The translations under genes and the position numbers were made by a program. Shown here one piece after another: positions 7,744-57,879 of a DNA stretch of 64,000 bases. This DNA is from an uncultured bacterium (GTDB lineage Bacteria > Lernaellota > Lernaellaia > Lernaellales > Lernaellaceae). Below the pieces are notes generated by a model. It saw only the letters and a list, made by a program, of their open reading frames with translations, ran no database searches and had not been told where the DNA came from. Each line of letters opens with the position of its first letter. Position 1 is the stretch's first letter. Where the stretch lies: contig CAZEDX010000005.1 of NCBI GenBank assembly GCA_964511015.1, positions 21,171-85,170 on the forward strand. The letters are read 5' to 3'.

Positions 7744-7969
7744 CCGAGCCCCCTTCTATTTCCAGATTGTTGGGATTGGAGAGACAAGTCAAGTTATGCG
7801 ATTTTGATCGGCTTTCCGGTCACGGCGTTCAACCAATGGGCCATCGGCCGTGTCTGAACGCTGACGTACGCAACGCCGGTCAGGGTGGTGTGCGGTTTGG
7901 ACTCCATTCCAAACCTTGCACGGCTCCGGTGGACATGCTAGAAGGCTGCGAAACGGAAACGGAGCGCCG

Positions 7970-8890
7970 ATGCGCAAATTGATTGCTTGGCTTAGGGGTT
8001 TGAACTGGAAGCTGACCCTTGGCTATTGCGCCCTGTTTTTCGTGCTGTTCTTCGTTTTCTTGTACCTGACCTTTCCCTACAACTCGGTTCGCGACGCCAT
8101 CGTGCGTCAAGTTGAAAGCCTGCAAGGCGCGGAAGGCACTTCCGCGATGCGCATGCGCGTGGAAGTGGCCGATGTTTCTCCGTTCCGGTTGACCGGCGTG
8201 CGCCTGCAGGGCGTCAAACTCTCCCGGCCCGAGGATCCACGACAGGTATTGCTCAATCTGAACGAAGTGCGAATTCGCCTGCGGCCGACCCAACTTTTAC
8301 GCGGCCGGCTGTGGCTCGATTTCGACGTCTACGCCTACGACGGCGGCGCCGCGGGCTCCTACTGCAAACGCGGCCCAGTGACTGATCTGGCGTTGAACTT
8401 TGTAGGGCTGCGCCTAGCAAAATACGGCACGCGCGAACTGGTGCAGAAGTTCGGCTCGATGTCGTTGGACGGCACGTTATCCGGCCAGTTCGAGCTCCAC
8501 TTCAACCCGGCGATGCGCCGCAACAACAGTGGTGGGCTGACGTTGAACATCGACAAATTGAAGGCCACCGGCATCACCATGGTCGGCAACAAGCTGCCCG
8601 ACATGACTTTCGAACCGGGCAAGATCGTGTTGAAGATGCAGAACCAGAACTTCCAGGTCGACGAATTCAAACTGAAGAGTGACCAACTGGAAGTGGATCT
8701 GACCGGCCGCATCACGCTGGCCGATCAGATGAAGAACAGCCGCCTGTTCCTGAACTTCAGGTTCAAGCCTTCCGACGAACTTGAAACCGCCTTAGGCATG
8801 TTGATGATGACGATGAAAGAGCCGGATGACGAGGGCTTCTATTCGCTATCCATCAACGGCACGCCGGGGAATCTCCGCACCCGTCACTGA
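7970..8890 (+). CDS. Membrane-anchored periplasmic protein, possibly T2SS GspN-like. Start taken at MRKLIAW.
   Basis: N-terminal TM helix WKLTLGYCALFFVLFFVFLYL followed by a beta-rich domain. The family assignment is tentative. Confidence 0.4.
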   Translation: MRKLIAWLRGLNWKLTLGYCALFFVLFFVFLYLTFPYNSVRDAIVRQVESLQGAEGTSAMRMRVEVADVSPFRLTGVRLQGVKLSRPEDPRQVLLNLNEVRIRLRPTQLLRGRLWLDFDVYAYDGGAAGSYCKRGPVTDLALNFVGLRLAKYGTRELVQKFGSMSLDGTLSGQFELHFNPAMRRNNSGGLTLNIDKLKATGITMVGNKLPDMTFEPGKIVLKMQNQNFQVDEFKLKSDQLEVDLTGRITLADQMKNSRLFLNFRFKPSDELETALGMLMMTMKEPDDEGFYSLSINGTPGNLRTRH

Positions 8891-9390
8891 TCGTGATCTG
8901 CAGACTGCTTTTTTCTGGGTACCGTCCGGCGAGTGTCGTGGTTGAAATACCGCCGCTCCACGATGGATACAATGATCAACGCTGTAACCATGACCGTGGT
9001 GACGGCGAAGCCGAGTAACGGGTAACCGGCACCGACTAGCGCCCCGATCGCCGCCATCGTCCAAATCGTGGCAGCGGTGGTCAGCCCGCGGACCGCCATT
9101 CCCTGTTGGATGATGACGCCGGCGCCTAGGAAACCGACGCCAGTCACCACCTGCGCCGCAATGCGGGTTGGATCGACGTCTTGTCCGCTACCGCTGGCCA
9201 TCATTTCGCCGACCATGACATACAACGCCGCGCCCAAACTGATCAGCATCATCGTGCGCAAACCGGCCTCGCGATGATGGATCTCCCGCTCAAGGCCGCA
9301 GGCGATTCCGCACAGCATGGCCACGGCCAGCCGCATCCAGATGGTAACATCAAGCAACCGCGCCAAGTCGAAACCGGTTGATGCGCTCAT
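8884..9390 (-). CDS. mgtC: MgtC/SapB family membrane protein.
   Basis: MgtC signature LCGIACGLEREI and multiple TM segments. Start chosen at MSASTGF. Confidence 0.7.
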   Translation of the reverse strand: MSASTGFDLARLLDVTIWMRLAVAMLCGIACGLEREIHHREAGLRTMMLISLGAALYVMVGEMMASGSGQDVDPTRIAAQVVTGVGFLGAGVIIQQGMAVRGLTTAATIWTMAAIGALVGAGYPLLGFAVTTVMVTALIIVSIVERRYFNHDTRRTVPRKKQSADHDQ

Positions 9391-9404
9391 CCAGAATCCC
9401 CTGT

Positions 9405-10922
9405 TCAGCATCCACACGCGTCGGCATCGTCGGCGGCGGACGCTTGGTTGCTGTCATCATCCACGTCGTCGTCTAGGTCGTCGTCCTGATCGTCGTCGGC
9501 ATCATCGTCGGACAGATCGTCATCGGCGATGTCGTCGTCGGCATGGTCGTCGTCCGCAACGTCGTCATCCGCGCTGTCATCATCGACAATGTCGTGCGGT
9601 TCCAGAAAATCATAGTAGCGCCCCATCCAGTAGGCGATCAGGTAGTCGACTCCGGGCTGCACGTGCTGAGGCAGCCAGCCGTAACATTGCAAATGGTGGG
9701 GTGTGCGTTGCCACAGGTATTCCACGCGACACCGGTCGGTGATTTCCTGCGCTCCCTCGGCCTGGTATGCGAAACCGAGCAAATCGTTGAGACCCAACGA
9801 CTCGGCCAAGTCGGTCAGAAACACCGATACCGGATCGACCGGCAGTTGCGGACAGTTAATGTGAATCTCGCGGTTGGGCGGATCCTGGAAGACGGTGAGC
9901 GAGTGAAGATCGTCTTCCATGATCTCCTTCGCCCCGGCGCACTGACCCATTTTTTCACAGGCGATCAGATAGACGTAGTCGAAATAGACGTTGTGGGTCC
10001 ATTCGACCAGCCGGCGCTGTTTGCTGAACAGATCCCAATAGACCGCCAAACGTTCCGGATCGTCATCCAGCCGGAACAGGTTCAGATCGATCTGGTGCCG
10101 CAGGTTGTTGGCGAAGTACTCGGTATACCGGTTGAAAAAGGCAATGCTCGTCAACGGCAGCGTGGGCGCCAGTTTTTCGAACTGTTCGGCATACAGATCC
10201 CAATACTCTGCCGTGTCCAGAATGTGCGCCGCGATCAGGCAGAAAACGAGGCGTTTCTGGCCGTCGATCATCGGCGCCGCCGTGGTCGGCAAGCCTTCCT
10301 CGTTGAGAATCAGCCAGGCGCTGTTGCGCAGCTTGTCGATGACCTCTTTCACCATCTCGCGAATCAGGGCCCGGGTCGGGGCGTCGTCGATGAAATCGTA
10401 GGCCAGCGCGAGGCCGTGCCACCAACCCACATATTGGTCGGACGAACTGTTGGACAGATAGAAAGTGCCCAGCCACGGGCCGGTGCCGTATTCGAGCAGG
10501 TCGCTGCCGGCGTACTCCAACCAGTAGGCCGGATCGTTGACCGGGCCGACGTAACGCCCGATGTACCCGGTGGTTTGCGTCACTCGCAGGTGATCGCGCA
10601 AGGTCTCCACCGCGGCGATTGCGTTCTGCTTGGCGTCTTCGTCGCCCGTCACCGCGTAGCGGAATGATTCGGCCGCGCAGTAGGTGGCCGTCCACATCGT
10701 GGAATCGCCCTGGCCGCGGTAGTACAGCACCTTCTCCAGGTCCTCCGTTTCGAACATGATCTGGACAATGCCGCCATAGCCCGGCACGTGGTGGTCGCGG
10801 AGCCAGGTTTCGTAGTCGATGGCACGTTGAAGCAGGGCCGGGTCTTCGTCTGCCGAAACGGGCGCCGCAAACGCGATCGCCACCGCGCCCAAAAGGAATA
10901 GGACGAGCGTTCTTTTTCTCAT
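9405..10922 (-). CDS. Secreted alpha-helical protein of unknown function carrying a C-terminal poly-Asp repeat tail that ends ...DDADACGC-COOH.
   Basis: Signal peptide MRKRTLVLFLLGAVAIAFAAPVSA. C-terminal ~60 aa read DDDSADDDVADDDHADDDIADDDLSDDDADDDQDDDLDDDVDDD...ACGC, then stop. Confidence 0.6.
   Translation of the reverse strand: MRKRTLVLFLLGAVAIAFAAPVSADEDPALLQRAIDYETWLRDHHVPGYGGIVQIMFETEDLEKVLYYRGQGDSTMWTATYCAAESFRYAVTGDEDAKQNAIAAVETLRDHLRVTQTTGYIGRYVGPVNDPAYWLEYAGSDLLEYGTGPWLGTFYLSNSSSDQYVGWWHGLALAYDFIDDAPTRALIREMVKEVIDKLRNSAWLILNEEGLPTTAAPMIDGQKRLVFCLIAAHILDTAEYWDLYAEQFEKLAPTLPLTSIAFFNRYTEYFANNLRHQIDLNLFRLDDDPERLAVYWDLFSKQRRLVEWTHNVYFDYVYLIACEKMGQCAGAKEIMEDDLHSLTVFQDPPNREIHINCPQLPVDPVSVFLTDLAESLGLNDLLGFAYQAEGAQEITDRCRVEYLWQRTPHHLQCYGWLPQHVQPGVDYLIAYWMGRYYDFLEPHDIVDDDSADDDVADDDHADDDIADDDLSDDDADDDQDDDLDDDVDDDSNQASAADDADACGC
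9408..9580 (-). repeat. Tandem 12-nt repeats, (GAC)3-NNN type, encoding DDDx.
   Basis: Protein tail DDDxADDDx... read directly. Coding for the C-terminus of the 9405..10922 gene. Confidence 0.7.
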
Positions 10923-16970: not shown

Positions 16971-18251
16971 ATGGCAAAGAAGCCTACCAAAAAGACGCGT
17001 TCCGAGACGTTGAAGCAGGTGGCGTTAAAGGCGGCGAAGAAGGCGAAGCCCAAGAAAACCGCCAAGCCGGTCAAAAATACTGCCCCGAAGACCAAGCCCA
17101 CTCGTAAGCAAGCGGTGGTGCCGAAACCGGAGCCCAAAGCCAAGACCATATTCTTTACCGGCTTTCCGGGTTTTATCGGCAAGCGCTTGATCATCAAACT
17201 GCTGGAAGCCAACCCGGACCTCCGTTTTCTCGCTCTCGTGCAAGACAAGTTCCGCGAAACCGCGGAAAAAGCGGTGGAAGAACTCGCCAGCGTGGTGCCC
17301 GTGGCGCGCAACAACATCGAGTTGCTGTCCGGTGACCTGACCCTTGACGGATTGGGGCTCGATACCAGCCTGCAGGCGCGCCTGTGCCGCGAAGTAACCG
17401 AGATCTGGCATCTCGCCGCCGTGTACGATCTGGCGGTGCCCGAAAAAATCGCCTGGCAGATCAACGTCGAGGGCACGCGCCGCATTCTCGAGTTGTGCGA
17501 ACAGGCCAAGCATCTGGAACAGTTCGTCTACGTTTCGACCTGCTATGTCGCCGGCCTGCGCACCGGTCTGATCTTGGAAGAGGAATTGGACTACGGCCAG
17601 GGTTTCAAAAACCACTATGAATCGACCAAATTCGAGGCCGAAGTCCTGGTTCGCCAGCGAATGAGCCGGATCCCGACCATCATCATCCGCCCGGCCATCG
17701 TCGTCGGCGACAGCCAGACTGGCGCCACTGACAAATACGACGGACCATACATGTTCGCGCGGCTCTACGCCGACCTGGAGAATCGCAATCTGCTGCAGCA
17801 CTTCCGGGGCGTGCCGTTGCCGGCGGTCGGCCGCGGCGACGCCTATTTCAACATCGTGCCGGTCGACTATCTGGTCAACGCCATGATAGTCATTACCGCC
17901 AATCCAAAGGCCCGGGGCAAAACGTTCCAGATTGCCGATCCGGACCCCTGCACCACGCGAGAGTTGTTCGACCTAGTCGGCGAATCATTTGGTTTGAAAC
18001 CGACGCGCGGCTTCCTGCCGATCCCGCTGGTGCGGGTATTGACCAAGATACCGGCGTTGGGCGAGTTCTTGGGGTTCCCGGAGCAGAGCCTGGACTACGT
18101 TGACCACAACGCGGTGTTCGATTGCCAAAACACCCTGGATTTTATAAAAGCGGCCGGACTACGTTGTCCGTCGCCTCGCGAGTATATCCCCCGTATGGTC
18201 GAATATACGCGCGAACACCTGAAACAGCACGGCATGCGTGCGAAGTATTGA
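16971..18251 (+). CDS. SDR-family NAD(P)-dependent reductase (thioester/acyl-CoA reductase-like) with a ~60-aa N-terminal Lys/Ala/Pro-rich histone-H1-like tail.
   Basis: N-terminus [58 protein letters not shown], then Rossmann [13 protein letters not shown] and an extended SDR core. Confidence 0.7.
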
Positions 18252-18297
18252 AAAAGGAAAGACATCTACCACCGCTTGGTCTAGCAGGAGTGATTTC

Positions 18298-18543
18298 ATG
18301 CGGTATCGCACCACCAAAGTCAATCCGCGCATGGTTTTGCGCAAGAGCGTTGTCACCAACCCCCGCGAGGTCATGCAGGTCGGCCGCAATGAGCCCTGCC
18401 CTTGCGGCAGCGGCGAAAAATACAAGAACTGCTGTATCGATAAGGGCGACCCCTTCCTGCGCAAAATGGCCGCCAAAGCGCGCAAAGAGCGTGAGGGCAG
18501 CTTGTTGCGACGATTGCTGATAGGCAAGAAGAAAGAAGACTGA
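18298..18543 (+). CDS. SEC-C metal-binding motif protein.
   Basis: [18 protein letters not shown]. Confidence 0.55.
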
Positions 18544-18547
18544 GCCC

Positions 18548-19177
18548 GTGAGTCGCATACTGACCGTCATCCTGACCCTCTTGTTGCTCGGCGCATGGGT
18601 ATTGGGAGTGGTGGTAGACAGCGACTACGACGAAGCGACCGCGATCCAACTTGGCTTCCTTTGGTTCCTCGCCGCCCTGGCTCTATCGTGGAACACCAGA
18701 CGCCGCTGGCTCAAAGTCACCGCCCTGCTACTGCTGGTGGCCGTCATGCTGACGTTGGGCGTGCTGGCGCGCCGTGGGGGGGTGTACCGCACCAACGCGC
18801 GCGTTTTACTGGCCCAAAATATGCTCGAACAAGTGGCACGTTCGCTGAACACATATCGGGCAAGCGGTCAAAATCTGCCCACCGGCGATTGGATGTCGAC
18901 GGCGCAGTTGCTGCAGCAGACCGGTAGCTGGCAGATCCTGCGCATCCCCTATCAAGGGCGAACGGAAACGGCCGACTTCGCCACCATTCCACGATCCGAT
19001 CCGTGGGGATGCCGCTATCGCTATCAGGCTTCTGGTGAGCGTTTCACCTTGGCGAGTTCGGGTCCGGACCGGCGGTGGAACACACCGGACGATCTGGTGG
19101 TGAACGACGGCACTCCCCTGCCCGCCGCCCCTCGGCCACTACCAGTATTCGCGCTGTCGAAAAAAATGACGCGGTAG
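18548..19177 (+). CDS. Membrane protein with a C-terminal T2SS GspG-like pseudopilin domain but no prepilin leader.
   Basis: Three N-terminal TM helices. C-terminus ...DPWGCRYRYQASGERFTLASSGPDRRWNTPDDLVVND matches the GspG C-terminal signature (DPWGNPYxY...sGpDg...DDi). No GFTLIE-type cleavage motif. Confidence 0.5.
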   Translation: MSRILTVILTLLLLGAWVLGVVVDSDYDEATAIQLGFLWFLAALALSWNTRRRWLKVTALLLLVAVMLTLGVLARRGGVYRTNARVLLAQNMLEQVARSLNTYRASGQNLPTGDWMSTAQLLQQTGSWQILRIPYQGRTETADFATIPRSDPWGCRYRYQASGERFTLASSGPDRRWNTPDDLVVNDGTPLPAAPRPLPVFALSKKMTR

Positions 19178-20816: not shown

Positions 20817-20949
20817 GAATACCTCGTTGGGTTCAATTGGTTTTTTTTATCACGTTCCGCCGTCCCGGAACAAGCAAACCCCCTGGCTTCGTTTGACAGA
20901 TACCGGCCCGGCAGTGATATTTTCAAAAAAACGGAAGTGAGGATACCCG

Positions 20950-21240
20950 ATGACCCGTACCGAAATCATATGTGCACTTGTCGCCATGTTGCTGGTACTG
21001 GTCATTGCGGCAGCGACACCCTTTTCCCCCAGGGCAGATGACCGGGCGGACGATGACACCGTCGACGACGATACGATTGACGACGACGCACTCGACGATG
21101 ACACCCTTGACGATGATACCCTCGATGACGACACCCTCGATGACGACACGGCTGACGACGACACCGCGGACGACGACACGTTGAGCGAACGGCCATATAC
21201 CCACACTCTGCAGTTGAGCGACGGCGGCTGCGGCTGCTGA
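20950..21240 (+). CDS. 96-aa secreted or membrane-tethered mini-protein that is essentially signal/TM segment + (DDDTx)n repeats + C-terminal GGCGC.
   Basis: MTRTEIICALVAMLLVLVIAAATPFSPRADDRADDDTVDDDTIDDDALDDDTLDDDTLDDDTLDDDTADDDTADDDTL...SDGGCGC*. GGAAGTGAGGA RBS 5 nt upstream. Confidence 0.65.
   Translation: MTRTEIICALVAMLLVLVIAAATPFSPRADDRADDDTVDDDTIDDDALDDDTLDDDTLDDDTLDDDTADDDTADDDTLSERPYTHTLQLSDGGCGC
21034..21190 (+). repeat. 15-nt tandem repeats encoding DDDT(L/A/I).
   Basis: gacgatgacacccttgacgatgataccctcgatgacgacaccctc... read directly. Confidence 0.8.
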
Positions 21241-21248
21241 AGCCCGCC

Positions 21249-22685
21249 CTATTCCGTCAGTTCCTCGCGGCGTTTGCCAAAAATGTATTTGATGAATTTG
21301 ATGAATGAGCCGCCGAAATAGCGCAAGTCGTCCATACTGCGCAGCAGCTTCAGTTTGCGCCACACGAAACCGGGGCGCAGGTAGATGCGCCGGTACATTC
21401 CCCGCTGCAAGCGAATCAGATCGGCGGGCGAAAAGTGATGGGTGTGCCATACCGGCTCACCGCGCACGATGTCGTATTCGTCCCAGTCCTCGCTTTCGAC
21501 CAACCCTTCCTCGGTCATGACCCGGTGCAAGTCGGTGCCCGGATACGGCACCGCCACGTAGACCATGACAAAATCGGGTTTGATCCGCAGCATCAACCGG
21601 AACGTTTGCTCCACTTCGGCCGGTGTTTCCGACGGGTGTGAGCCGATCATAACAAAAGCGCTGGTCAAAATTCCCGCCCGGTGCGCCGCCGCGAATGCCG
21701 CCTCGATTTGCTCGAGCGTGATGCGTTTGCGGACGGCTTCCAGCATTCGCGGGCTGCCGCTTTCGACGCCGAAGGCGATTTTGACGCAGCCCGAGTCGGC
21801 CATCAGTTGCAGCAGTTCCTGATCCACATTACTGACGCGGCTGTCGCAGTCCCAGGAGACACCGAGTTCATGCAACCCATGACAGATATCAATCAGCCGC
21901 TCCCGGCCGTAGGTGAAGGTGTCGTCGTCGATGGTGAAGTGGTCGACGCCGTAGCGTTCGACACATTCCCGCACTTCGTCGAGAACATGGCGCGCGGAGC
22001 GAAAGCGAACCTTGCCGCGGTGGGTGACAAACGAGCCGCAGAAGAAACAATGAACCGGGCAACCGCGGCTGGTGAACAACTCGGTGATGTTGCGCAGCTT
22101 GCTGGAAAGCCCGGGGCTCGAACTCCCCTGATAGAGCGAGAAGTCAATCAGGTCGCGCGCCGGGAACGGCAGTTGGTCGAGGTTTGCCAGCATCTCACGC
22201 ACGGGTCCCCGGCGGATGTCGCCGTCCTCGCGATACACCGTGCCCGGCACTCCGCGCAGCACCCTATCCCCTCGCTGGATCGATTGGCATAGATCGGCCA
22301 GCGCTTGTTCTCCTTCGCCGATTACTCCCACGTCAAACGCCGAGAACTCCGCCAACGTCCGTTCGGGAATGGCCGACAGGTGCGGCCCGCCGACGAGCGT
22401 CACGATGTCGCGGCTGAAGTCTTTCACCACCCCCGCGAGCCGCGCCGCGCTGTTGACGATGGGGGTCATGGCCGTGAAGCCGACCGCGTCCGGCGCGAAC
22501 CGCGCTAGTTGGGACCGCAGTTGATCGGGGTGATAGCGCATCACGCCGTAATCCCAGATCTCGACCGTGGTTCCGACACGTTCGCGCACATATGCCGCGA
22601 GTTGGGCCAGATTAATCGGATGCTGGCACACCTCGGACGCGATGGAGAGCATCGGTTCCGGCGGTCGGACAAGGGCGAGTCTCAT
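21249..22685 (-). CDS. B12-binding-domain radical SAM enzyme (class B rSAM).
   Basis: N-terminal cobalamin-binding-like domain. CxxxCxxC: TSRGCPVHCFFCGS. Start chosen at MRLALVRPP, which has a GAGGG RBS. Confidence 0.8.
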   Translation of the reverse strand: MRLALVRPPEPMLSIASEVCQHPINLAQLAAYVRERVGTTVEIWDYGVMRYHPDQLRSQLARFAPDAVGFTAMTPIVNSAARLAGVVKDFSRDIVTLVGGPHLSAIPERTLAEFSAFDVGVIGEGEQALADLCQSIQRGDRVLRGVPGTVYREDGDIRRGPVREMLANLDQLPFPARDLIDFSLYQGSSSPGLSSKLRNITELFTSRGCPVHCFFCGSFVTHRGKVRFRSARHVLDEVRECVERYGVDHFTIDDDTFTYGRERLIDICHGLHELGVSWDCDSRVSNVDQELLQLMADSGCVKIAFGVESGSPRMLEAVRKRITLEQIEAAFAAAHRAGILTSAFVMIGSHPSETPAEVEQTFRLMLRIKPDFVMVYVAVPYPGTDLHRVMTEEGLVESEDWDEYDIVRGEPVWHTHHFSPADLIRLQRGMYRRIYLRPGFVWRKLKLLRSMDDLRYFGGSFIKFIKYIFGKRREELTE

Positions 22686-22752
22686 TGGTTCCCTCGCTGT
22701 TTTCGCATAATGAGCGCGGGGGATTATAGTCGCCCGGCGCCGTTTGGCCAAA

Positions 22753-23448
22753 TCAGGTCAGCCGTACCGGACAATTCTCACAACGGGGCCGGGTCTTGCG
22801 GCAGAAATCCTTACCGACGTAGACAATCTGGGCGTGGAACTCGCCGAAGAATTCGGCGTCATGGTCCAGCGTCCGGTGAAAAAGTTCCTGCAGCGGTTGA
22901 TACGCAACGTCCTCCGCCACCGCGCCCATACGCGACAGAATGCGCCGGGTATACGCATCCACTACAAAAATCGGCTGGCGGGCGGCGTAGAGAATCATCG
23001 AGTCAGCGGTCTCCGGCCCAATGCCCTTAAGCGCCAGCAACTCGGCCCGCAGCACGTTCGTCGGCTGGCCGAGCATCGCACGCAAACTGCCCCGATGACG
23101 GCGGGCCAAATGTTGGCAAAACTCCCGCAACCGCGCCGATTTCTGGTTGTAGTACCCGGCCGGTCGCACCGCTTCGGCCAGAGCCGCCGGAGACGCTCCG
23201 AGCATGCCGCGAACGCTCAACATACGACGCGATTTGAGATTGGCGATGGCCTTCTCGACGTTGGTCCAGGCGGTGTTTTGGGTCAGAATTGCGCCGACAC
23301 AGATCTCGAAATCGGTATCGCCCGGCCACCAGCACAACGGACCGAAGTAGGCGAAGGCGGCCTCGTAGATGGCCAACAACCGCCGGCGAATCTCAACCTT
23401 TGAGCGGGGCGAGTTGATCGATGGCCAAGAAGCCGTGCAGCCATACAT
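22753..23448 (-). CDS. nth: Endonuclease III-like HhH-GPD base-excision glycosylase with an Fe-S cluster loop.
   Basis: ...ICVGAILTQNTAWTNVEKA...LKGIGPETADSMILYA... and C-terminal CRKTRPRCENCPV. The start is uncertain because it overlaps the upstream small ORF. Confidence 0.65.
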   Translation of the reverse strand: MYGCTASWPSINSPRSKVEIRRRLLAIYEAAFAYFGPLCWWPGDTDFEICVGAILTQNTAWTNVEKAIANLKSRRMLSVRGMLGASPAALAEAVRPAGYYNQKSARLREFCQHLARRHRGSLRAMLGQPTNVLRAELLALKGIGPETADSMILYAARQPIFVVDAYTRRILSRMGAVAEDVAYQPLQELFHRTLDHDAEFFGEFHAQIVYVGKDFCRKTRPRCENCPVRLT

Positions 23449-23656
23449 CGCGGATACCTGTGGCGCCGAGACAGTCCACGCACAGGCCGATTTCCTGCGG
23501 ATCGGAGAGCTGCAGGTAGACCAGCGGACCGTTGGCGTTGTCTTTCGTCTCAACCTGTTTCACCTTGCCCGTGTGCAACCGGAAGCCATCCACCCGCGCG
23601 GCGTGGTTGTTATGAACTGTATCTTCAATTTTGCGTCCGCAACGAACGCAACGCAT
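23393..23656 (-). CDS. Small Cys-rich (zinc-ribbon-like) hypothetical protein.
   Basis: MRCVRCGRKIED...CVDCLG. An 87-aa ORF on the same strand as nth, in another frame. Confidence 0.35.
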   Translation of the reverse strand: MRCVRCGRKIEDTVHNNHAARVDGFRLHTGKVKQVETKDNANGPLVYLQLSDPQEIGLCVDCLGATGIRDVWLHGFLAIDQLAPLKG

Positions 23657-23742: not shown

Positions 23743-26262
23743 TCAGCACCCACAGCCTTCGGCGGAATGCCGGTCGTCGTCTTGATCCGCAGGCGACGAA
23801 TCGTCATCGGCCGCATCGTCATCTGACGAGTCATCGTCGTCGGCATCGTCATCGCTCGGCGGCGGCTCGTCCGCCGGTTCCACGGTCAAGGATAGCTCCC
23901 GGTACGACCAGCCGCTATCCGTCGTGGCCAGCACGATTGCCTCGTAGCGACCGGCGTGCGACGGCGTCCAGCGGATCGTGCCGCCACTGACCGTCGCTTC
24001 GGCCAACCCGTATACCGCCACTTCCGCCCCGTCGGCTACCGCATAGGTCCACTCCTCGGCCGCTTTCAAGCGGGTCGTGGACGGTTCGAGAATCGACGGC
24101 GCGGTGAAGCCCACGGCTTCGGGCGGCTGTTTGCCCAGATGCCGGCGCAGGGAATTCGTTTGCATCAGACTGAGTTGGTACCGGTCGTGGAAAAGAGCAT
24201 CCCACAACAAACGGTCTGCTTCGGCCAACGCGGCCTCGTTGGGAAGCCCACTCATCAACGAACTCAGATAGTCGAGCAATCGCAGCAAGGCCTGTCCTTC
24301 GTCGGTCAGCCGGTCGCAGGGGAACCACAGGTCATCCACCAGAGAGACATCGAGCGTGCTGTGGTGCAGACGATTCTGGGTGGTTGCCATTTCGGCGGCA
24401 ATGTGCATTAGCGCACTCCCCGCGGTGACCAGCGTTTGCCGGGAGCCGTCGGGCAACTCATCCTCCAGTTGCTCAATGGCTTCATTCATCGCACGGTTGT
24501 TGGGGAAGTTCAGGCCGTCAAACCCCAACGCCCCGTTTCCGTAGAAGGTTTCGGCCATATAGACCGCCAGTTGCCGGTCGTGTTCGGATAACGCCGCCTC
24601 TCGCGCAGCGGGACCCAGAGCGTCGTCGGGCTCGTAGTCGGCGGCATTGCGCAGATACAGCGCGTACGTGCCGAGCATAAGGCGATTGGCGGCGCCGAGG
24701 ATCATCGGGTTGGTCACGATGCCAACCACCGCGTCGACCAGATCGGCGCTGCGGTTCTGGTAAGGCGCGAGATATACCTTGCCCATGAAGCCATCGCCGC
24801 CGTCGGTGCCGTTTTCGTTGTCCCAGATGGCCGGCTCGCGCCCCAGGCGCGAAGTCACGTCGATCAGATCGGCCGCCTCAAGGGTCGGACTAAACGTGTC
24901 GGTCCCGGTCCACATCACTTCGATCTGCGGGTCGAGTTCGGCACAGACATCCAGGTATTCGGAGCCGCCCGGCCAATCGTTTTGCCGTTGGCTCGAATAC
25001 ACCGTGGGTACGACCCACAGCGCCACGTCTTCGCCGGCCATGGCGGAAAGTTCGCCCCGCAGCCAGTTGGCCAGGGCCACGTGTTGGGCGGCCAACTCAC
25101 CGTCGATCGGCACTCCGACGTCTCCTTCGATGTCATCGAGCAACAAAGTGAAATGGCGAAAACCTCCTTCGACAAACGGCTGGAGCTTAGCCAACAGGGT
25201 CGCCTTTTCCACAGGGTCGTCCATGTCCATGTCTTTGCCCGGACTGATGCCGAAAGAGAAGGTAACGCCGACCATTGCGCCCAGGTGCAGCAGTTCGACA
25301 AAGCGCGCCACCGCTTGGTCATCGTAGGGCGTGCGCCATTCGTCGCGGTGCAACGGATCGTTCTTGGGGCCGTAGATATACAGCCCCAGTCCCAGGCGAG
25401 CCAAGAACGTCATCATGGCCCGGCGCTCGGCATGCGACCACGGCCGGCCGTAAAAGCCTTCCACCACGCCGCTGTTTTCGAGCAGTGGCGCCTCGCGGCT
25501 GGGCAAATCGACAACCTGTTCCGGGCCCACCGAACCGTCCTCGGCAACCGGCACCAACACGGCTTGCATTCCGGCCGACAGCGGGAGAGGGCCGAGCCAC
25601 GCCTCCCGCGGCATGGCCGTCCCGACCAACGACCAGCGGTCGACGTCAGTATCGCCCGAGTCAACGAAATGAATCTCCACGTGATGGACATACTCGCTGG
25701 CTTGTTTCCAATCCAGGCGCAGACCCGTGGCAACTTGCCGCGCACTCACGTTCGAGATTTCCGGCAAGCCGTCGACGGGCGCGGCATACACATGGAACTC
25801 ACGGAGATTGCCCGGACCGGCATCGCGCACCTCGACCTCGACACAATACGCCTCGGCGGGCTCGCCAAAGGCCAACGGCTGATCAAGATACTTCCACACT
25901 TGCTCGACCAACACCCGGCCACCACAGTATTCGCGGGCGCGAACCGTGACCGCGCCGTTTGGTTTGGTTTCCCATTCGGCGTCGAGTTGCGCCAGATGCG
26001 GCGCTGGTCCGCCAAGCGGCGCAAAATCGAACGACAGCGTCGCAATGCCTTGACGCGGCGTCTTCCAGCCGGTGTCCGGATCGTCATCGCGCACGGTGTA
26101 TGGCGCGTCATCGGTTTCGCGCGGCCACATCAGCAAAAAGGTCGGCTGGGTACCCGAAGCGGTCACGCGTGCAAACGGGACCAGATCGAGCGGTGCGGCC
26201 TGAACGGCCGCCGCGCTCAGCACTAAGACGGCCCACACTAGCAACAAGTGTTTCATTGGCAT
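23743..26262 (-). CDS. Secreted GH84-family beta-N-acetylglucosaminidase (O-GlcNAcase/hyaluronidase-like) with a C-terminal poly-Asp tail ending EGCGC.
   Basis: Signal MKHLLLVWAVLVLSAAAVQA. GH84 catalytic block VVEGFYGRPWSHAERRAMMTFLARLGLGLYIYGPKNDPLHRDEWRTPY...FRHFTLLLDDIEG (DD catalytic pair). Tail ...SDDDADDDDSSDDDAADDDSSPADQDDDRHSAEGCGC*. Confidence 0.8.
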   Translation of the reverse strand: MPMKHLLLVWAVLVLSAAAVQAAPLDLVPFARVTASGTQPTFLLMWPRETDDAPYTVRDDDPDTGWKTPRQGIATLSFDFAPLGGPAPHLAQLDAEWETKPNGAVTVRAREYCGGRVLVEQVWKYLDQPLAFGEPAEAYCVEVEVRDAGPGNLREFHVYAAPVDGLPEISNVSARQVATGLRLDWKQASEYVHHVEIHFVDSGDTDVDRWSLVGTAMPREAWLGPLPLSAGMQAVLVPVAEDGSVGPEQVVDLPSREAPLLENSGVVEGFYGRPWSHAERRAMMTFLARLGLGLYIYGPKNDPLHRDEWRTPYDDQAVARFVELLHLGAMVGVTFSFGISPGKDMDMDDPVEKATLLAKLQPFVEGGFRHFTLLLDDIEGDVGVPIDGELAAQHVALANWLRGELSAMAGEDVALWVVPTVYSSQRQNDWPGGSEYLDVCAELDPQIEVMWTGTDTFSPTLEAADLIDVTSRLGREPAIWDNENGTDGGDGFMGKVYLAPYQNRSADLVDAVVGIVTNPMILGAANRLMLGTYALYLRNAADYEPDDALGPAAREAALSEHDRQLAVYMAETFYGNGALGFDGLNFPNNRAMNEAIEQLEDELPDGSRQTLVTAGSALMHIAAEMATTQNRLHHSTLDVSLVDDLWFPCDRLTDEGQALLRLLDYLSSLMSGLPNEAALAEADRLLWDALFHDRYQLSLMQTNSLRRHLGKQPPEAVGFTAPSILEPSTTRLKAAEEWTYAVADGAEVAVYGLAEATVSGGTIRWTPSHAGRYEAIVLATTDSGWSYRELSLTVEPADEPPPSDDDADDDDSSDDDAADDDSSPADQDDDRHSAEGCGC

Positions 26263-26315
26263 CCCCATAGAGCCAGGGGTTCGCGACGGATCGCTATTCG
26301 TCGGCAACTCTCTTC

Positions 26316-28520
26316 CTAACAGCCACAACCACCGGTGTCATCATCGTCGTCGGCCTGATCGTCATCGGCACCGGTATCGTCGTCGCTATCGTCGTCGTCG
26401 ACCGCGTCATCATCGGCGTCGTCATCGGCGACGGTGTCGTCGTCGACGTAGTCGTCGGGCTCTGGCCCCAAACCGCCGAACTTGAGATACGGTTCGTGTT
26501 TGGCCGCAAGAGCCGCAAAGGCCGGTTTGAACGTCGTGCGGTCCATGTGCGCCAAACCCATTGACTGCAGGTACGGCGCAATGAAATTCGGCAAGCCGTT
26601 CTTGGTGTACCAATTGAACACACAGAACCAGGTGGTGGCGATCAGGTTTCCCTGCGGGTTGACCTGGCCGTTCACGTCGAGCGCGGCAGTTTCGGCAAAC
26701 GCGGGCCAGGTGCCGTTAACCGTGTCCACCTGTCCTTGCGCGTCGCTATCGTCAGATTCCGACCAATAGCCGAACTCCGTGTCGATGATCGGGTGGTTCG
26801 GATACTTCTTCTGGAACTCGGTGATGAATTCGAGCGTTTCGCTGTACATGTCATCGCCGTAGAACACGCCGTAGTACATCGTCCAGCCGGCCACATCGAT
26901 TGGCGGCACCGACGCCGACATCAGTTTCCAGTTTTGCGCGGCCGGCGACTGGGTGATCATGCGTCCATCGGGGTAGTTGTCCCGGTGGTCGGCGGCCAGC
27001 ATGGCGTTGTAGTCGGCGACCTGCATTACCCACACAAACGGGCATTCGTTTTCCGTTCCCCAAAACATAACAGAGGGCCGGTTGAAATTGGATAGCACCA
27101 TTTCGCGAAACATCTGCTGGTGGATTCCGCGTGTGTTCTGGAGCGTCCAGTTCCAACCGAAGTTCCAATACACCGGAATCTCAGTCATCACCGCCATGCC
27201 CAGGCGATCGGTCAACACGTAGGTATACAAGTGGTTCGGGTAATGCCCTGTGCGCAGGAACAACGCCTTGAGATCGCGCCGCATGGTTACGATGTCGTCG
27301 CGGATGCGCTCCCAAGAGGCGGTGCGGCCGGTGTCGGGGTAGTCTTCATGGCGCGCAACGCCCGGAAAGAACGCCACGCGGCCGTTGACCAACAGCTTGC
27401 CGCCGTGCCGGGCGACGGTACGAATTCCGAATTGATTGAAATGCTCGTCGACCGCTTCGTTGTCGACTGCCAAGGTGGTCTTCATCACATAGAGGTGCGG
27501 CTCCTTTGGCGTCCATCGCAACGGACGCCGCACCCGAAGATCAAAGGAGAGTACCCGAAGTTGTCCGGCCGGCACAATAACGGCCGCTTGCGAATCACCT
27601 TCCAAGAAAGCTTCGTCGCCGATGATCGACGACGGATGTGGATCGGTCAGATAGCCCGCCGCCGCCGGGTCCGCCCGGTAGGCCGTTAAATCGACCGAAA
27701 CCTCTTCATCTGTAGCCAGGTCGTTGGCAACTACCACTTCGAGGTGCAGCGACCCGTTGTAGTCGACTGGCACTATGTTGGTTCGAACCACATGCACCGC
27801 CGGCATGCTTTCCAGGTAGAGATCCTGGATGACCCCGGTGTAGTCCCACCAATCCATCGCGATCCAAGAAGGAACGGCGTCTTGGCGCACGCCCGGGAAA
27901 GGCTTGTCGATACGAATGACCAGTAAGTTCTCGGCACCGTAGTTCAGGAACGGAGACAGATCGAAAGCAAACGGCGTGTAACCACCTTCGTGAACGCCGA
28001 CCCATTCGCCGTTGACCCAAAGGTCGAGAACATAGTTGGCGGCCAGGCAAACGAAATAGTTGGTACGGTCGGCCCAATCACTCGGGACCTCGACCACCCG
28101 ACGGTACCAAACGCCGTCATGATACGGCTCCGGCATATCCGACTCGTCACCGGGCATCGTGTTTTCTACACCCGGCAAGCGGTGCTGTGTCCAGCCGGAA
28201 TCGTCATAGCTCACAGTGTGACGCCCACCGCCGGCCGCCTCGATCGCGCCAATCGTCGTCGCATCGCGCAGTTCGAAGGTGAGATTGTGATCGAGGTGTT
28301 GGCGTTCCCGTTTCCATTGCCCAGCCAGGGAAACCACGTCATGATCCTGCGCTTCAAAATCAGGCACCGGAGCACCCGACTGGATGGGGACCATGACTCC
28401 ATCGACCTCAACGAAATCCAACGTCGTGGCCAGGGTGCCTGGTTGGCTGTCGCCTTGGGCAAGCGCAGCCGTCGTGAAACAGAACAGCAATAGAATTAGT
28501 AGTAGGCCGTCTTTTTTCAT
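26316..28520 (-). CDS. Secreted GH2-family glycosidase (beta-galactosidase/mannosidase/glucuronidase type) with a C-terminal poly-Asp tail ending GGCGC.
   Basis: Signal MKKDGLLLILLLFCFTTAALA (AAAGGAG RBS). GH2 sugar-binding domain WYRRVVEVPSDWADRTNYFVCLAANYVLDLWVNGEWVGVHEGGYTPFAFDLSPFL. Tail DDDTVADDDADDDAVDDDDSDDDTGADDDQADDDDDTGGCGC*. Confidence 0.75.
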   Translation of the reverse strand: MKKDGLLLILLLFCFTTAALAQGDSQPGTLATTLDFVEVDGVMVPIQSGAPVPDFEAQDHDVVSLAGQWKRERQHLDHNLTFELRDATTIGAIEAAGGGRHTVSYDDSGWTQHRLPGVENTMPGDESDMPEPYHDGVWYRRVVEVPSDWADRTNYFVCLAANYVLDLWVNGEWVGVHEGGYTPFAFDLSPFLNYGAENLLVIRIDKPFPGVRQDAVPSWIAMDWWDYTGVIQDLYLESMPAVHVVRTNIVPVDYNGSLHLEVVVANDLATDEEVSVDLTAYRADPAAAGYLTDPHPSSIIGDEAFLEGDSQAAVIVPAGQLRVLSFDLRVRRPLRWTPKEPHLYVMKTTLAVDNEAVDEHFNQFGIRTVARHGGKLLVNGRVAFFPGVARHEDYPDTGRTASWERIRDDIVTMRRDLKALFLRTGHYPNHLYTYVLTDRLGMAVMTEIPVYWNFGWNWTLQNTRGIHQQMFREMVLSNFNRPSVMFWGTENECPFVWVMQVADYNAMLAADHRDNYPDGRMITQSPAAQNWKLMSASVPPIDVAGWTMYYGVFYGDDMYSETLEFITEFQKKYPNHPIIDTEFGYWSESDDSDAQGQVDTVNGTWPAFAETAALDVNGQVNPQGNLIATTWFCVFNWYTKNGLPNFIAPYLQSMGLAHMDRTTFKPAFAALAAKHEPYLKFGGLGPEPDDYVDDDTVADDDADDDAVDDDDSDDDTGADDDQADDDDDTGGCGC

Positions 28521-28641
28521 CGTCGGCTCCTTTCTGTCCTTCATTGAGACATAGCCGGGGAGGTAAGTCAAGCATTATGGCACTCAGTGTCATATTGGAC
28601 GTCTTGTTTCGGGCGTCCGCTTCGGCTATCCACTGACTGCT

Positions 28642-57826: not shown

Positions 57827-57879
57827 CGTCCCTCCGGGGATGGCAGAAATGTAAGTCGTCGGAACCCGAAGGCAATTCT

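What the first reader, a model, noticed from the sequence alone, without database searches (positions are those of the whole stretch)
20950..22751. Tail-only mini-protein convergent with a B12-binding radical SAM enzyme
Gene 20950..21240 encodes a 96-aa product that is little more than an N-terminal hydrophobic segment, nine DDDTx repeats and the terminal GGCGC, i.e. the tag without a cargo domain. Its stop lies 8 nt from the stop of a class-B (cobalamin-binding) radical SAM enzyme on the opposite strand. A second B12-rSAM is at 57880..59367. B12-rSAM enzymes commonly methylate or crosslink peptide substrates, as in RiPP maturation. A repeat peptide with C-terminal Cys next to such an enzyme could be a free substrate, carrier or scaffold version of the tail. 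Alternatively the rSAM enzymes may modify the Asp/Thr/Cys tails of all the tagged proteins.
Basis: partly seen in the sequence, partly recalled or inferred. Interest (0 to 1): 0.6.

Follow-up and report, generated by a model that had tools for sequence, protein, structure and literature searches.

The report
Cargo-less acidic GCGC-tail secreted mini-protein
A small, real gene in an uncultured Lernaellota-like bacterium encodes an exported, extremely acidic peptide ending in Cys-Gly-Cys. It always sits tail-to-tail with a B12 radical SAM enzyme, but nothing indicates that the enzyme modifies it.

Summary
Gene 20950..21240(+) encodes a 96-aa protein with a signal peptide, nine DDDxx units and a ...SDGGCGC end. 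Its stop lies 8 nt from the stop of a convergent B12-binding radical SAM (rSAM) gene.

The mini-gene is real. Fourteen orthologous loci keep the frame, the signal peptide and an invariant His-x8-GCGC end. All 14 are convergent with the same rSAM.

The enzyme-substrate reading is not supported:
- The pair lies inside a conserved multi-gene block with separate promoter-like sites.
- The rSAM persists without the mini-gene in same-phylum relatives at 54-58% identity.
- It also persists in about 70 loci from many phyla at 24-50% identity. There it sits in sugar/glycosyltransferase clusters or in an lspA-lgt-rSAM operon.
- It has no extra peptide-recognition domain, and its closest solved structure is the sugar dehydratase AprD4.
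- The mini-protein is Sec-exported and has no leader peptide.

DDDxx repeats are generic linkers in these lineages. The terminal GCGC equals the signature motif of MYXO-CTERM sorting signals, but the membrane helix and Arg cluster are missing.

Best reading: a cargo-less, envelope-located polyanion belonging to an undescribed acidic-linker/terminal-Cys tail class.

The parts
20893..20921 (+). Promoter-like site of the mini-gene (TTGACA-17-GATATT). It lies in the 133-bp divergent region shared with the GAF-GGDEF gene.
   Evidence: 10/12 match; a GGAAGTGAGGA ribosome-binding site follows, before ATG 20950
20950..21240 (+). Mini-protein gene, 96 aa: signal peptide + (DDDxx)9 + conserved C-terminal motif + stop
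   Evidence: orthologues in 14 loci
20950..21036 (+). Signal-peptide region (aa 1-22/29; basic n-region, hydrophobic core IICALVAMLLVLVIAAA; AxA-type cleavage sites inferred by eye)
   Evidence: Read directly from the sequence. Orthologues have ...VWA|QADDD...AHA|QQADDD and ...IFA|QT.DDD, so the mature peptide starts at the acidic repeats. No signal-peptide predictor was run.
21049..21179 (+). 15-nt tandem repeat array encoding the DDDxx units
   Evidence: 8.7 copies, 76% matches; the unit number varies from 5 to 10 among orthologues
21202..21237 (+). Family-specific C-terminal motif H85-TLQLSDG-GCGC96. H, G, C, G, C are invariant in 8 orthologues.
   Evidence: P0124 and P0238 end in THTLLLTDGGCGC and THSLVISDGGCGC
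21249..22685 (-). B12-binding radical SAM enzyme, 478 aa (the ORF can be extended to TTG 22751)
22723..22751 (-). Promoter-like site upstream of the rSAM start (TTGGCC-17-TATAAT)
22753..23553 (-). HhH-GPD DNA-glycosylase-like gene. It is the rSAM's upstream, same-strand neighbour and its oldest syntenic partner.
   Evidence: conserved upstream of the rSAM down to 55-58% identity
19179..20816 (-). GAF-GAF-GGDEF diguanylate cyclase, divergently transcribed from the mini-gene. The arrangement is conserved in the same clade.
23743..26328 (-). GH84 N-acetylglucosaminidase with a signal peptide and an acidic tail ending ...RHSAEGCGC (a cargo-bearing tail)
   Evidence: tail variants in orthologues
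26316..28571 (-). GH2 glycosidase with an acidic tail ending ...DDDDDTGGCGC
9405..10922 (-). 505-aa secreted protein of unknown family with an acidic tail ending ...ADDADACGC
46148..47452 (-). TIG / choice-of-anchor-Z lipoprotein with DDDTT repeats, ending ...GGCSG
57880..59367 (-). Second, paralogous B12-rSAM (27% identical). It lies between an LPG_synthase_C-domain gene and a ~10-helix membrane protein of unknown family.

Best explanation
The mini-gene is a genuine, lineage-restricted gene of a Lernaellota (FEN-1099) clade.

Shown:
- It has its own promoter-like site and ribosome-binding site.
- It carries an N-terminal signal peptide whose predicted cleavage leaves a peptide of about 70 aa. 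With cleavage after residue 22 the calculated pI is about 4 and the net charge about -28.
- That peptide is made of DDDxx units followed by the conserved end H-x4-S-D-G-GCGC.
- The same acidic-linker + terminal CxC/CC ending is attached to many secreted hydrolases of these organisms.
- The four-residue GCGC is the published signature motif of MYXO-CTERM sorting signals, but here the membrane helix and Arg cluster that follow it in MYXO-CTERM are absent.

Inferred:
- The peptide is exported by Sec and stays in the cell envelope as a disordered, cation-binding polyanion.
- Its terminal cysteines (with the conserved His) serve as the attachment or recognition point. The attachment would be a lipid or disulfide tether, by analogy with the predicted Cys lipidation of MYXO-CTERM.
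- It is therefore a cargo-less member of the tail class, not a precursor peptide.

The convergent B12-rSAM is an independently conserved cytoplasmic enzyme. Its subfamily is far older and wider than the mini-protein. Its most recurrent context elsewhere is sugar/glycan biosynthesis, and the adjacency is best explained as synteny inherited within one clade.
For: The gene is real.
- 14 orthologous loci carry it, and in the eight compared frame by frame this is the only frame open throughout in all.
- H85, G93, C94, G95 and C96 are invariant.
- A promoter-like site precedes it.

The family is restricted.
- Only 5 cluster representatives among 1.84 billion reach E<=1e-10.
- Only 4 hits in the 5.8-billion-protein set are orthologues.

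The repeats are generic linkers.
- Other hits are signal peptide/lipobox + DDDxx + unrelated cargo.

The tail is a class.
- Three further CGC-ended tails and one variant ending GGCSG lie in the window.
- Most of the full-length GH84 orthologues from 96% down to 42% identity carry an acidic linker + CGC/CC(x0-3). Ten lack it, and none has a TM + Arg segment.
- The GCGC signature of MYXO-CTERM and its predicted lipidation are from 10.1101/2023.06.07.544157 and PMC11980579.

The rSAM is independent.
- Orthologues at 54-58% identity lack the mini-gene but three of the four keep HhH-GPD upstream.
- 73 loci at 24-50% identity (most at 40-50%) from Coatesbacteria, Geobacterales, Nitrospirota, Planctomycetota, Elusimicrobia and DPANN archaea have no acidic/Cys-terminal ORF within 10 kb.
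- 35 of 72 loci carry DegT, 2,3-dehydratase, methyltransferase, GT2 or GT-C genes within 5 kb.
- The closest solved structure is AprD4, by sequence (E=9e-37) and by fold (TM 0.74-0.78).
- The whole block HhH-GPD / rSAM / mini / GGDEF / pseudopilin-like / SEC-C / NAD_binding_4 is syntenic.
Against: - The mini-to-rSAM adjacency is perfect (14/14), with only 1-78 nt between the stops. The clade is deep enough that the mini-proteins are only 41-59% identical and the rSAMs 68-83% identical, so some selective reason for the pairing cannot be excluded.
- No modification, localisation or expression data exist.
- Cys anchoring without a membrane-holding helix has no precedent in bacteria.
- The tail gives no hit to the MYXO-CTERM model.
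- No CPBP/Rce1-like protease or Lgt gene was seen in the window: tblastn found no lgt or lspA there, but not every ORF was scanned for protein families.
- Whole genomes could not be scanned. 'rSAM without tails' is therefore shown only for +-10 kb neighbourhoods.
Confidence: 0.5

Rival explanations
1. One reading: the mini-protein is a free, RiPP-like substrate (or carrier) of the adjacent B12-rSAM. The enzyme would methylate or crosslink its Asp/Thr/Cys residues before export.
For: - The convergent adjacency is strict in all 14 mini-protein loci.
- Class-B rSAMs do modify peptides, for example ApyD makes beta-methyl-Tyr (PMC10635010).
- ApyD is nominally the top NCBIfam hit (187 bits).
- MgmA, which acts on a protein, is the second-best fold match.
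Against: - The ApyD hit is far below its cut-off (187 vs 750 bits) and equals the HpnJ hit (186). It covers profile positions 68-392 of 645.
- ApyD is described as an RRE-containing enzyme (PMC10635010). Here Pfam finds only the B12-binding and Radical_SAM domains in a 478-aa protein, so no recognition domain is seen.
- The genes are convergent, each with its own promoter-like site.
- The locus has no transporter, protease or leader peptide, and the peptide carries a Sec signal instead.
- The rSAM subfamily is conserved across phyla and in same-phylum relatives without any such peptide.
- The adjacency is part of a larger syntenic block.
Confidence: 0.1
2. Indirect link through glycosylation: the rSAM makes an unusual (deoxy- or C-methyl-) sugar. 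A membrane GT-C glycosyltransferase then attaches it to the Thr/Ser of DDDTx repeats on exported proteins, including the mini-protein.
For: - In Geobacterales and Nitrospirota the orthologue is embedded in the order 2,3-dehydratase / GFO oxidoreductase / DegT / methyltransferase / rSAM / multi-pass membrane protein with TPR repeats, read here as a GT-C-type glycosyltransferase.
- GT2 genes flank it in DPANN archaea and in Ca. Alcyoniella.
- PMT_2-type genes lie 4-7 kb away in L083 and L085.
- Thr occupies position 4 in 8 of the 9 repeats.
- AprD4, the nearest structure, is a sugar enzyme.
Against: - The window locus has no sugar-pathway or glycosyltransferase gene next to this rSAM.
- Position 4 of the repeat varies freely (T/S/A/V/H) in other tails.
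- Enzymes at 40-48% identity need not share a function.
- There is no evidence of glycosylation.
Confidence: 0.07
3. A soluble periplasmic or extracellular cation and metal buffer or chaperone: poly-Asp binds Ca2+/Mg2+/Fe, and the conserved His plus the Cys-Gly-Cys chelate a soft metal. There is no covalent anchoring and no link to the rSAM.
For: - The peptide is 31% Asp, with a calculated charge of about -28.
- His85, Cys94 and Cys96 are invariant.
- Another acidic-tail gene overlaps an MgtC-family gene.
- Relatives at 57% rSAM identity have a membrane-anchored DxDxDG-repeat (Ca-binding-like) protein in the same convergent position.
Against: - The His is absent from most cargo-bearing tails.
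- The identical GCGC ending on many unrelated hydrolases argues for a sorting or attachment role rather than metal chemistry.
- The ending tolerates CC, CCxx and CGCx variants, which fits a lipidation or attachment motif better than a fixed chelating site.
Confidence: 0.2
4. Not a functional gene: a low-complexity remnant (a detached tail fragment) that merely stays open because of its repeats.
For: - Several other frames of the repeat region are also largely open.
- The product has no Pfam or NCBIfam domain.
Against: - Signal peptide, frame, stop position and the H...GCGC motif are conserved in 14 loci despite 41-59% identity and a variable repeat number.
- A promoter-like site and a ribosome-binding site are present.
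Confidence: 0.03

Closest known systems
MYXO-CTERM sorting signal / myxosortase system (TIGR03901; Myxococcota)
   Same: - Both are Sec-exported proteins with an N-terminal signal peptide.
- Both have a disordered linker before the tag.
- The signature motif is the same, 'GCGC' with an essential Cys.
- Clients are surface or extracellular enzymes, and a type II secretion gene (GspN) is present in the window.
- After myxosortase cleavage distal to the lipidated Cys, a MYXO-CTERM protein would end about where these proteins end by translation.
   Different: - Here the protein stops at GCGC (+0-3 residues), with no transmembrane helix and no Arg cluster.
- The TIGR03901 model gives no hit, whereas a genuine MYXO-CTERM tail picked up in the metagenome scan scores 31.8 bits.
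- MYXO-CTERM is reported as restricted to Myxococcota.
- No lipidation has been shown in either system.
Eukaryotic C-terminal prenylation motifs (Rab CXC/CC/CCXX versus CaaX + Rce1)
   Same: - Terminal CGC, CC, CCxx, CGCx and CGCSLL variants occur among orthologues. These have the same shapes as the Rab/CaaX motifs (own knowledge).
- There is a conceptual parallel: an Rce1-dependent form (CaaX / MYXO-CTERM) beside a form that needs no cleavage (CXC / this tail).
   Different: The eukaryotic motifs act on cytosolic proteins, whereas these are exported bacterial proteins. No prenyltransferase was identified. This is an analogy only.
RiPP precursor + class-B radical SAM maturase pairs (e.g. ApyA/ApyD, PoyA/PoyBC)
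   Same: A small peptide gene lies next to a B12-binding rSAM.
   Different: - The orientation is convergent.
- Pfam finds no domain beyond the B12-binding and Radical_SAM domains, so no peptide-recognition domain is seen.
- The peptide has a Sec signal instead of a leader.
- The locus has no transporter or protease.
- The enzyme subfamily is conserved without the peptide.
AprD4 (radical SAM 1,2-diol dehydratase of apramycin biosynthesis, PDB 6FD2)
   Same: It is the best sequence match (E=9e-37) and the best fold match (TM 0.74-0.78) to the window rSAM. Both have an N-terminal Rossmann/B12-like domain plus an rSAM core. Many orthologues sit in sugar clusters.
   Different: Identity is only 24%. 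The NF033070 score is 137 against a cut-off of 500. The window locus has no aminoglycoside or AprD3-like context.
Low-complexity interdomain linkers of secreted bacterial enzymes (e.g. Pro/Thr-rich linkers)
   Same: DDDxx arrays sit between signal peptide or lipobox and cargo, between domains, or before a C-terminal tag. Their repeat number varies.
   Different: The composition is almost pure Asp in a strict 5-residue period, implying strong cation binding. In the mini-protein the linker makes up nearly the whole mature product.

Membership tests
MYXO-CTERM sorting domain (TIGR03901) | N-terminal signal peptide on the client protein | tested here: met
   Hydrophobic N-termini with AxA-type sites occur in the mini-protein and its orthologues. 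They were read from the sequence; no predictor was run.
MYXO-CTERM sorting domain (TIGR03901) | Short signature motif with an invariant Cys, commonly GCGC | tested here: met
   GCGC is invariant in 8 aligned orthologues.
MYXO-CTERM sorting domain (TIGR03901) | Hydrophobic transmembrane helix after the motif | tested here: not met
   The stop codon follows GCGC directly, or after one residue (L or W). No GH84 orthologue down to 33% identity has a helix after the Cys motif.
MYXO-CTERM sorting domain (TIGR03901) | Arg-rich cluster at the extreme C-terminus | tested here: not met
   Same as above. A scan of about 293 kb of clade loci found no genuine tripartite Cys signal.
MYXO-CTERM sorting domain (TIGR03901) | Match to the family HMM above its cut-off (20 bits) | tested here: not met
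   There is no hit even at E<=10 for three tails, including the mini-protein's. The positive control L099 scores 31.8 bits.
MYXO-CTERM sorting domain (TIGR03901) | Cognate CPBP/Rce1-like myxosortase in the genome | not tested
   None appeared among the window proteins scanned, but not all ORFs were scanned and the genome is not available. A 1083-aa Rce1-like gene lies in L081, a 57%-identity relative that lacks the mini-gene.
RiPP precursor / class-B rSAM maturase pair | Precursor and maturase co-transcribed or at least co-oriented in one cluster | tested here: not met
   The genes are convergent with stops 8 nt apart and separate promoter-like sites.
RiPP precursor / class-B rSAM maturase pair | Leader-recognition element (RRE or equivalent) in the enzyme or in a partner protein | tested here: not met
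   Only PF02310 + PF04055 are found in a 478-aa protein. The ApyD match covers profile positions 68-392 of 645. ApyD itself is described as RRE-containing.
RiPP precursor / class-B rSAM maturase pair | Enzyme and precursor co-occur across genomes | tested here: inconclusive
   Mini-to-rSAM is 14/14. The reverse direction fails outside one clade: 4 loci at 54-58% and 73 at 24-50% lack it. Only +-10 kb around each gene was visible.
RiPP precursor / class-B rSAM maturase pair | Precursor with a leader/core organisation and a dedicated export/protease system, not Sec | tested here: not met
   The peptide has a Sec-type signal peptide and the mature end begins at the repeats. There is no transporter or protease gene in the block.
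Class B (cobalamin-binding) radical SAM enzymes | N-terminal B12-binding domain + rSAM core with CxxxCxxC | tested here: met
   PF02310 E=1e-19 and PF04055 E=9e-21. C209/C213/C216 are invariant. The model (pLDDT 90) matches AprD4, MgmA, TsrM, OxsB, CysS and TokK.
Class B (cobalamin-binding) radical SAM enzymes | Actual cobalamin dependence and reaction type | not testable with these tools
   AprD4, the nearest structure, is a dehydratase rather than a methyltransferase, so the chemistry cannot be inferred.
Named NCBIfam rSAM equivalogs (ApyD, HpnJ, BchE, AprD4, PhpK ...) | Score above the curated cut-off | tested here: not met
   The best scores are 187 against 750 (ApyD), 186 against 578 (HpnJ), 160 against 481 (BchE) and 137 against 500 (AprD4).

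The most novel reading that the evidence does not exclude
The acidic-linker + terminal CxC/CC endings, of which the mini-protein is the cargo-less form, would be a new class of bacterial C-terminal cysteine attachment (lipidation) signal. It would need no transmembrane helix and no cleavage: a 'pre-cleaved MYXO-CTERM', the prokaryotic counterpart of Rab CXC versus CaaX.

The conserved neighbouring class-B rSAM would take part in making or tailoring that Cys-linked modification. The coincidence that keeps this alive is that the rSAM's sister clade carries it in a translationally coupled lspA-lgt-rSAM operon. Lgt is the leading candidate for lipidating the GCGC cysteine of MYXO-CTERM (PMC11980579).

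A weaker version, the new anchoring signal without any rSAM involvement, is considerably more likely (about 0.3).
Probability: 0.07. Interest if true: 0.85.

Novelty: new variant of a known kind. Interest (0 to 1): 0.45.

Why it matters
If the terminal GCGC of these acidic tails is an attachment signal, an uncultured phylum of polymer degraders would display its exoenzymes by a route not yet described. The route would be related in motif to MYXO-CTERM but would lack the membrane helix, the Arg cluster and the need for a sortase-like cleavage.

The mini-protein would then be the ideal experimental handle. It is a ~70-residue peptide that carries only the linker and the motif, so the chemistry on its cysteines could be read directly by mass spectrometry.

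The negative result matters as well. It stops a plausible-looking 'RiPP + B12-rSAM' annotation from being propagated. It also points the rSAM subfamily toward sugar/envelope contexts, including the unexpected lspA-lgt-rSAM operon in a sister clade.

Tried and rejected
- Protein-guided scan of metagenome contigs with the mini-protein alignment: 600 pattern hits, none confirmed, because the pattern fell on the low-complexity repeats. It was replaced by a codon-level DNA pattern for H-x4-[ST][DN][GA]GCGC. That recovered 5 further orthologous loci, plus chance hits and a genuine MYXO-CTERM tail.
It was rerun with database proteins.
- Pfam and NCBIfam scans of the mini-protein and of isolated tails gave nothing, apart from a sub-threshold MxKDx-repeat hit.
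- Literature searches for an Asp-rich/Cys-Gly-Cys sorting signal, and for Lernaellota surface biology, found no description of this tail.
- I remembered ApyD as an Asp methylase. The paper shows it is an RRE-containing Tyr C-beta methyltransferase, so that lead was dropped.
- Cluster-member look-up, tried in order to tie tail-bearing GH84 genes and rSAM genes to the same MAGs, gave no usable assembly links.
- BLAST of the 669-aa membrane protein next to the second rSAM against GT-C/PMT_2 proteins from related loci gave no match.
- A search for tripartite Cys signals in about 293 kb of clade loci gave only spurious out-of-frame ORFs.
Full report
**Observation.** The window (58% G+C) carries an ORF at 20950..21240(+) that encodes 96 aa. 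The product has a basic/hydrophobic N-terminus, nine DDDxx units and the end ...YTHTLQLSDGGCGC. Tandem Repeats Finder reports 8.7 copies of a 15-nt unit at 21049..21179, and Asp makes up 31% of the protein. The stop codon lies 8 nt from the stop of a convergent ORF at 21249..22751(-). That ORF has a B12-binding domain (PF02310, E=1e-19), a Radical_SAM domain (PF04055, E=9e-21) and an invariant CxxxCxxC. Database homologues are 478 aa, so the real start is probably ATG 22685. A second B12-rSAM at 57880..59367 is real but only 27% identical.

**Organism.** The rSAM is 75% identical to that of Ca. Lernaella stagnicola and 83% identical to that of the 'fen_1099' MAG. The window therefore comes from a member of Ca. 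Lernaellota (FEN-1099). These are uncultured anaerobes inferred to degrade polysaccharide and protein (PMC9324843).

**Is the mini-gene real?** Yes.
- Orthologues were found next to the rSAM in genome contigs L001, L002 and L004.
- More were found in assemblies reached through rSAM homologues: L078, L082, L083 and L084.
- Five metagenome contigs were recovered by a DNA pattern aimed at the peptide's own C-terminus: L090, L093, L094, L095 and L101.
- One more, L103, was reached through a profile search of 1.84 billion proteins.
- The proteins are only 41-59% identical, with 5-10 repeats. All keep a signal peptide whose AxA-type site abuts the first acidic repeat, and all keep an invariant His-x8-GCGC end, optionally followed by one residue, L or W.
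- Only this reading frame is open over the whole gene in all eight loci compared.
- A near-consensus promoter (TTGACA-17-GATATT) and a ribosome-binding site precede the ATG.
- The family is tiny. Five cluster representatives reach E<=1e-10.

**What the 'tag' is.** Three points qualify 'tail without cargo'.
- The DDDxx repeats are not specific to a tail. Profile hits are dominated by proteins in which a signal peptide or lipobox is followed by the same repeats and then by unrelated cargo. Others have the repeats internally. The repeats are therefore a generic polyanionic linker in these lineages.
- The terminal Cys motif does define a class. In the window it ends a GH84 enzyme (...RHSAEGCGC), a GH2 enzyme (...TGGCGC) and a 505-aa unknown protein (...DACGC). 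A TIG/choice-of-anchor-Z lipoprotein ends ...GGCSG. Most full-length GH84 orthologues from 96% down to 42% identity carry an acidic linker followed by CGC, CC, CGCx, CCxx or CGCSLL. Ten stop just before the linker, and none has a membrane helix after the Cys motif.
- The mini family has its own conserved segment between repeats and GCGC, H-x4-[ST]-[DN]-[GA]. Most cargo tails lack it.

**Link to known biology.** GCGC is the published 'generic' signature of MYXO-CTERM. [quoted passage not shown] The Cys is predicted to be lipidated, with Lgt as the leading candidate. The Rce1-like myxosortase then cleaves distal to the Cys, and type II secretion carries the protein to the surface (10.1101/2023.06.07.544157; PMC11980579). 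The Lernaellota tails end, by translation, about where a processed MYXO-CTERM protein would end. They fail the family's other defining features:
- no helix and no Arg cluster;
- no hit to TIGR03901 even at E<=10, while a genuine MYXO-CTERM tail caught by my DNA pattern (L099) scores 31.8 bits;
- no tripartite Cys signal anywhere in about 293 kb of clade loci.

I therefore treat the tail as working like MYXO-CTERM, not as a member of that family. The resemblance of the terminal variants to Rab/CaaX motifs is an analogy from my own knowledge. No Pfam or NCBIfam model and no paper I could find describes this tail.

**The rSAM.** None of 33 NCBIfam models reaches its cut-off. ApyD scores 187 against 750, HpnJ 186 against 578 and AprD4 137 against 500. 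The closest solved protein is the sugar 1,2-diol dehydratase AprD4. This holds by sequence (E=9e-37) and by fold on a confident model (pLDDT 90; TM 0.74-0.78). MgmA, TsrM, OxsB, CysS and TokK follow. Pfam finds no domain beyond the B12-binding and Radical_SAM domains. ApyD, the peptide-modifying top hit, is described as RRE-containing, and the match covers only profile positions 68-392 of 645.

The subfamily is well separated from its paralogue (40-50% against 27%) and is widespread. The genome scan returned 77 loci, 73 of them at 24-50% identity. They come from Coatesbacteria, Geobacterales including Citrifermentans bremense, Nitrospirota, Planctomycetota, Elusimicrobia and DPANN archaea. Each clade has its own context:
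- In Geobacterales and Nitrospirota the order is NDP-hexose 2,3-dehydratase / GFO oxidoreductase / DegT aminotransferase / methyltransferase / rSAM / TPR-containing multi-pass membrane protein, read here as GT-C-like.
- In DPANN archaea and Ca. Alcyoniella, GT2 genes flank it.
- In Coatesbacteria the order is an inositol-monophosphatase-like gene (my reading of the sequence; not scanned) / carbamoyltransferase / NusG_II / rSAM.
- A sister clade of 11 loci has lspA-lgt-rSAM. The lgt stop overlaps the rSAM start in five of them, and the order is kept while Lgt identity falls to 44%.

Overall, 35 of 72 loci have sugar or glycosyltransferase genes within 5 kb.

**Does the rSAM act on the mini-protein?**

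For: the adjacency is perfect from the peptide's side (14/14, stops 1-78 nt apart). It spans rSAM identities of 68-100%.

Against:
1. The genes are convergent, each with its own promoter-like site.
2. In the full-length loci, the same genomes also conserve the surrounding block, although its genes have unrelated functions and mixed orientations. The block runs small ORF / HhH-GPD / rSAM / mini / GAF-GGDEF / (500-aa protein) / pseudopilin-like / SEC-C / NAD_binding_4, while the sequence beyond it differs. The pair is therefore not singled out.
3. At 54-58% identity within the phylum (L079 Ca. Alcyoniella, L080, L081, L085) the rSAM is present and the mini-gene is gone. Three of these four loci keep HhH-GPD upstream. 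The mini-gene's place is taken by a GT2 gene, a DxDxDG-repeat membrane protein or a glyoxalase.
4. None of the 73 more distant loci has an acidic or Cys-terminal ORF within 10 kb. Cys-terminal ORFs number 6 of about 60 called ORFs in the window segment and L001-L004, against 3 incidental ones among about 1,080 elsewhere. At the clade's density of cargo tails, about 1 per 23 kb by my count, roughly 13 would be expected in the ~290 kb of the nearest outgroup. None is seen. This is a rough figure, because the loci are syntenic and not independent.
5. The peptide has a Sec signal and no leader, the enzyme model is a soluble globular protein, and the locus has no transporter or protease.

I put a direct enzyme-substrate relationship at about 0.1.

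**Most likely mechanism.**

Shown: the product is exported, polyanionic (calculated pI about 4 and charge about -28 for the mature peptide), low in complexity, and ends in the class motif.

Inferred: it stays in the envelope as a cation-binding polyanion. Its terminal cysteines, with the conserved His, form the attachment or recognition point. This makes it a cargo-less member of the tail class.

Its divergent arrangement with a GAF-GGDEF diguanylate cyclase is conserved in the same loci. That gives at least as good a hint of co-regulation, with surface or matrix functions, as the convergent rSAM does.

Rivals:
- a soluble metal/cation buffer using His + CGC (0.2);
- the RiPP-like model (0.1);
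- an indirect link in which the rSAM makes a sugar used to O-glycosylate the DDDTx repeats (0.07);
- a non-functional remnant (0.03).

**Novel reading not excluded.** The rSAM lies next to a GCGC-ended peptide in one clade. It is translationally coupled to lgt, the candidate Cys-lipidating enzyme for GCGC motifs, in the sister clade. That is a coincidence worth recording. It could mean that the subfamily tailors Cys-linked lipid modifications. However, lgt also forms an overlapping operon with the unrelated thyA in E. coli (own knowledge). The Geobacterales context points to sugars instead. I give this reading about 0.07.

**Verdict.** The gene is real and belongs to an undescribed tail class that resembles MYXO-CTERM in motif but not in architecture. 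The proposed rSAM-substrate relationship is not supported. Novelty: a new variant of a known kind (Cys-containing C-terminal sorting/attachment signals). Interest is moderate, mainly because the mini-protein offers a minimal substrate for finding out what happens to the terminal cysteines.

Noticed in passing
L007, L008, L011, L012, L013, L015, L016, L017, L018, L021, L054 (e.g. L013:2629-5491): A sister clade of the rSAM has a conserved lspA-lgt-rSAM arrangement. These enzymes are 45-48% identical to the window enzyme and 59-86% identical to each other. The lgt stop overlaps the rSAM start by 4 nt in five loci, and the order is kept while Lgt identity falls to 44%. This is an unexpected tie between a class-B rSAM and lipoprotein maturation genes.
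   Followed up: partly
L027-L050, L055, L074 (e.g. L029:5622-13239): Geobacterales and Nitrospirota orthologues of the rSAM sit in a conserved cluster: NDP-hexose 2,3-dehydratase / GFO oxidoreductase / DegT aminotransferase / methyltransferase / rSAM / TPR-containing multi-pass membrane protein, read here as GT-C-like. This suggests a role in making or transferring an unusual envelope sugar.
   Followed up: partly
proteins P0153-P0194 (orthologues of window 23743..26328): The C-terminal endings of GH84 orthologues vary among CGC, CC+1, CCxx, CGCx, CGCGD and CGCSLL. Ten orthologues lack the tail altogether. The set of shapes mirrors the eukaryotic Rab/CaaX prenylation motifs.
   Followed up: partly
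window 7916..10922: The acidic-tail protein 9405..10922 overlaps by 13 nt a downstream MgtC-family gene (8884..9417). A Leptospira-type type II secretion GspN gene (7916..8890) lies next to it on the other strand. This may be relevant to cation handling and to surface export of the tailed proteins.
   Followed up: no
protein P0129 (618-bp ENA contig): A 109-aa protein from another metagenome has a lipoprotein signal, DDDxx repeats and then GCEC + membrane helix + RRRR. It is a cargo-less acidic protein that does carry a full tripartite Cys sorting signal.
   Followed up: no
L080:11438-11917(-), L081:11804-12295(-): In relatives with 57% rSAM identity, the mini-gene's convergent position is occupied by a membrane-anchored ~160-aa protein. 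It is made of DxDxDG-type (calcium-binding-like) repeats.
   Followed up: no
window 56924..61373: The second B12-rSAM (57880..59367) lies between an LPG_synthase_C (DUF2156) gene and a 669-aa protein of unknown family with about 10 predicted helices. A thioredoxin-like gene and a metallophosphoesterase gene lie upstream. It looks like a lipid or envelope modification operon unrelated to the first rSAM.
   Followed up: partly
window 22685..22751 and 23393..23656: The mechanical ORF starts are probably too long. The rSAM most likely starts at ATG 22685 (478 aa, as in all homologues). The HhH-GPD ORF overlaps a conserved ~88-aa Cys-rich small ORF, and related loci call these as two separate genes.
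   Followed up: partly
window 16971..19177: Genes for an NAD_binding_4 (fatty-acyl reductase-like) protein, a SEC-C-motif protein and a GspG-like pseudopilin form the far side of the block that travels with the mini-gene, the GGDEF gene and the rSAM in all close relatives.
   Followed up: no
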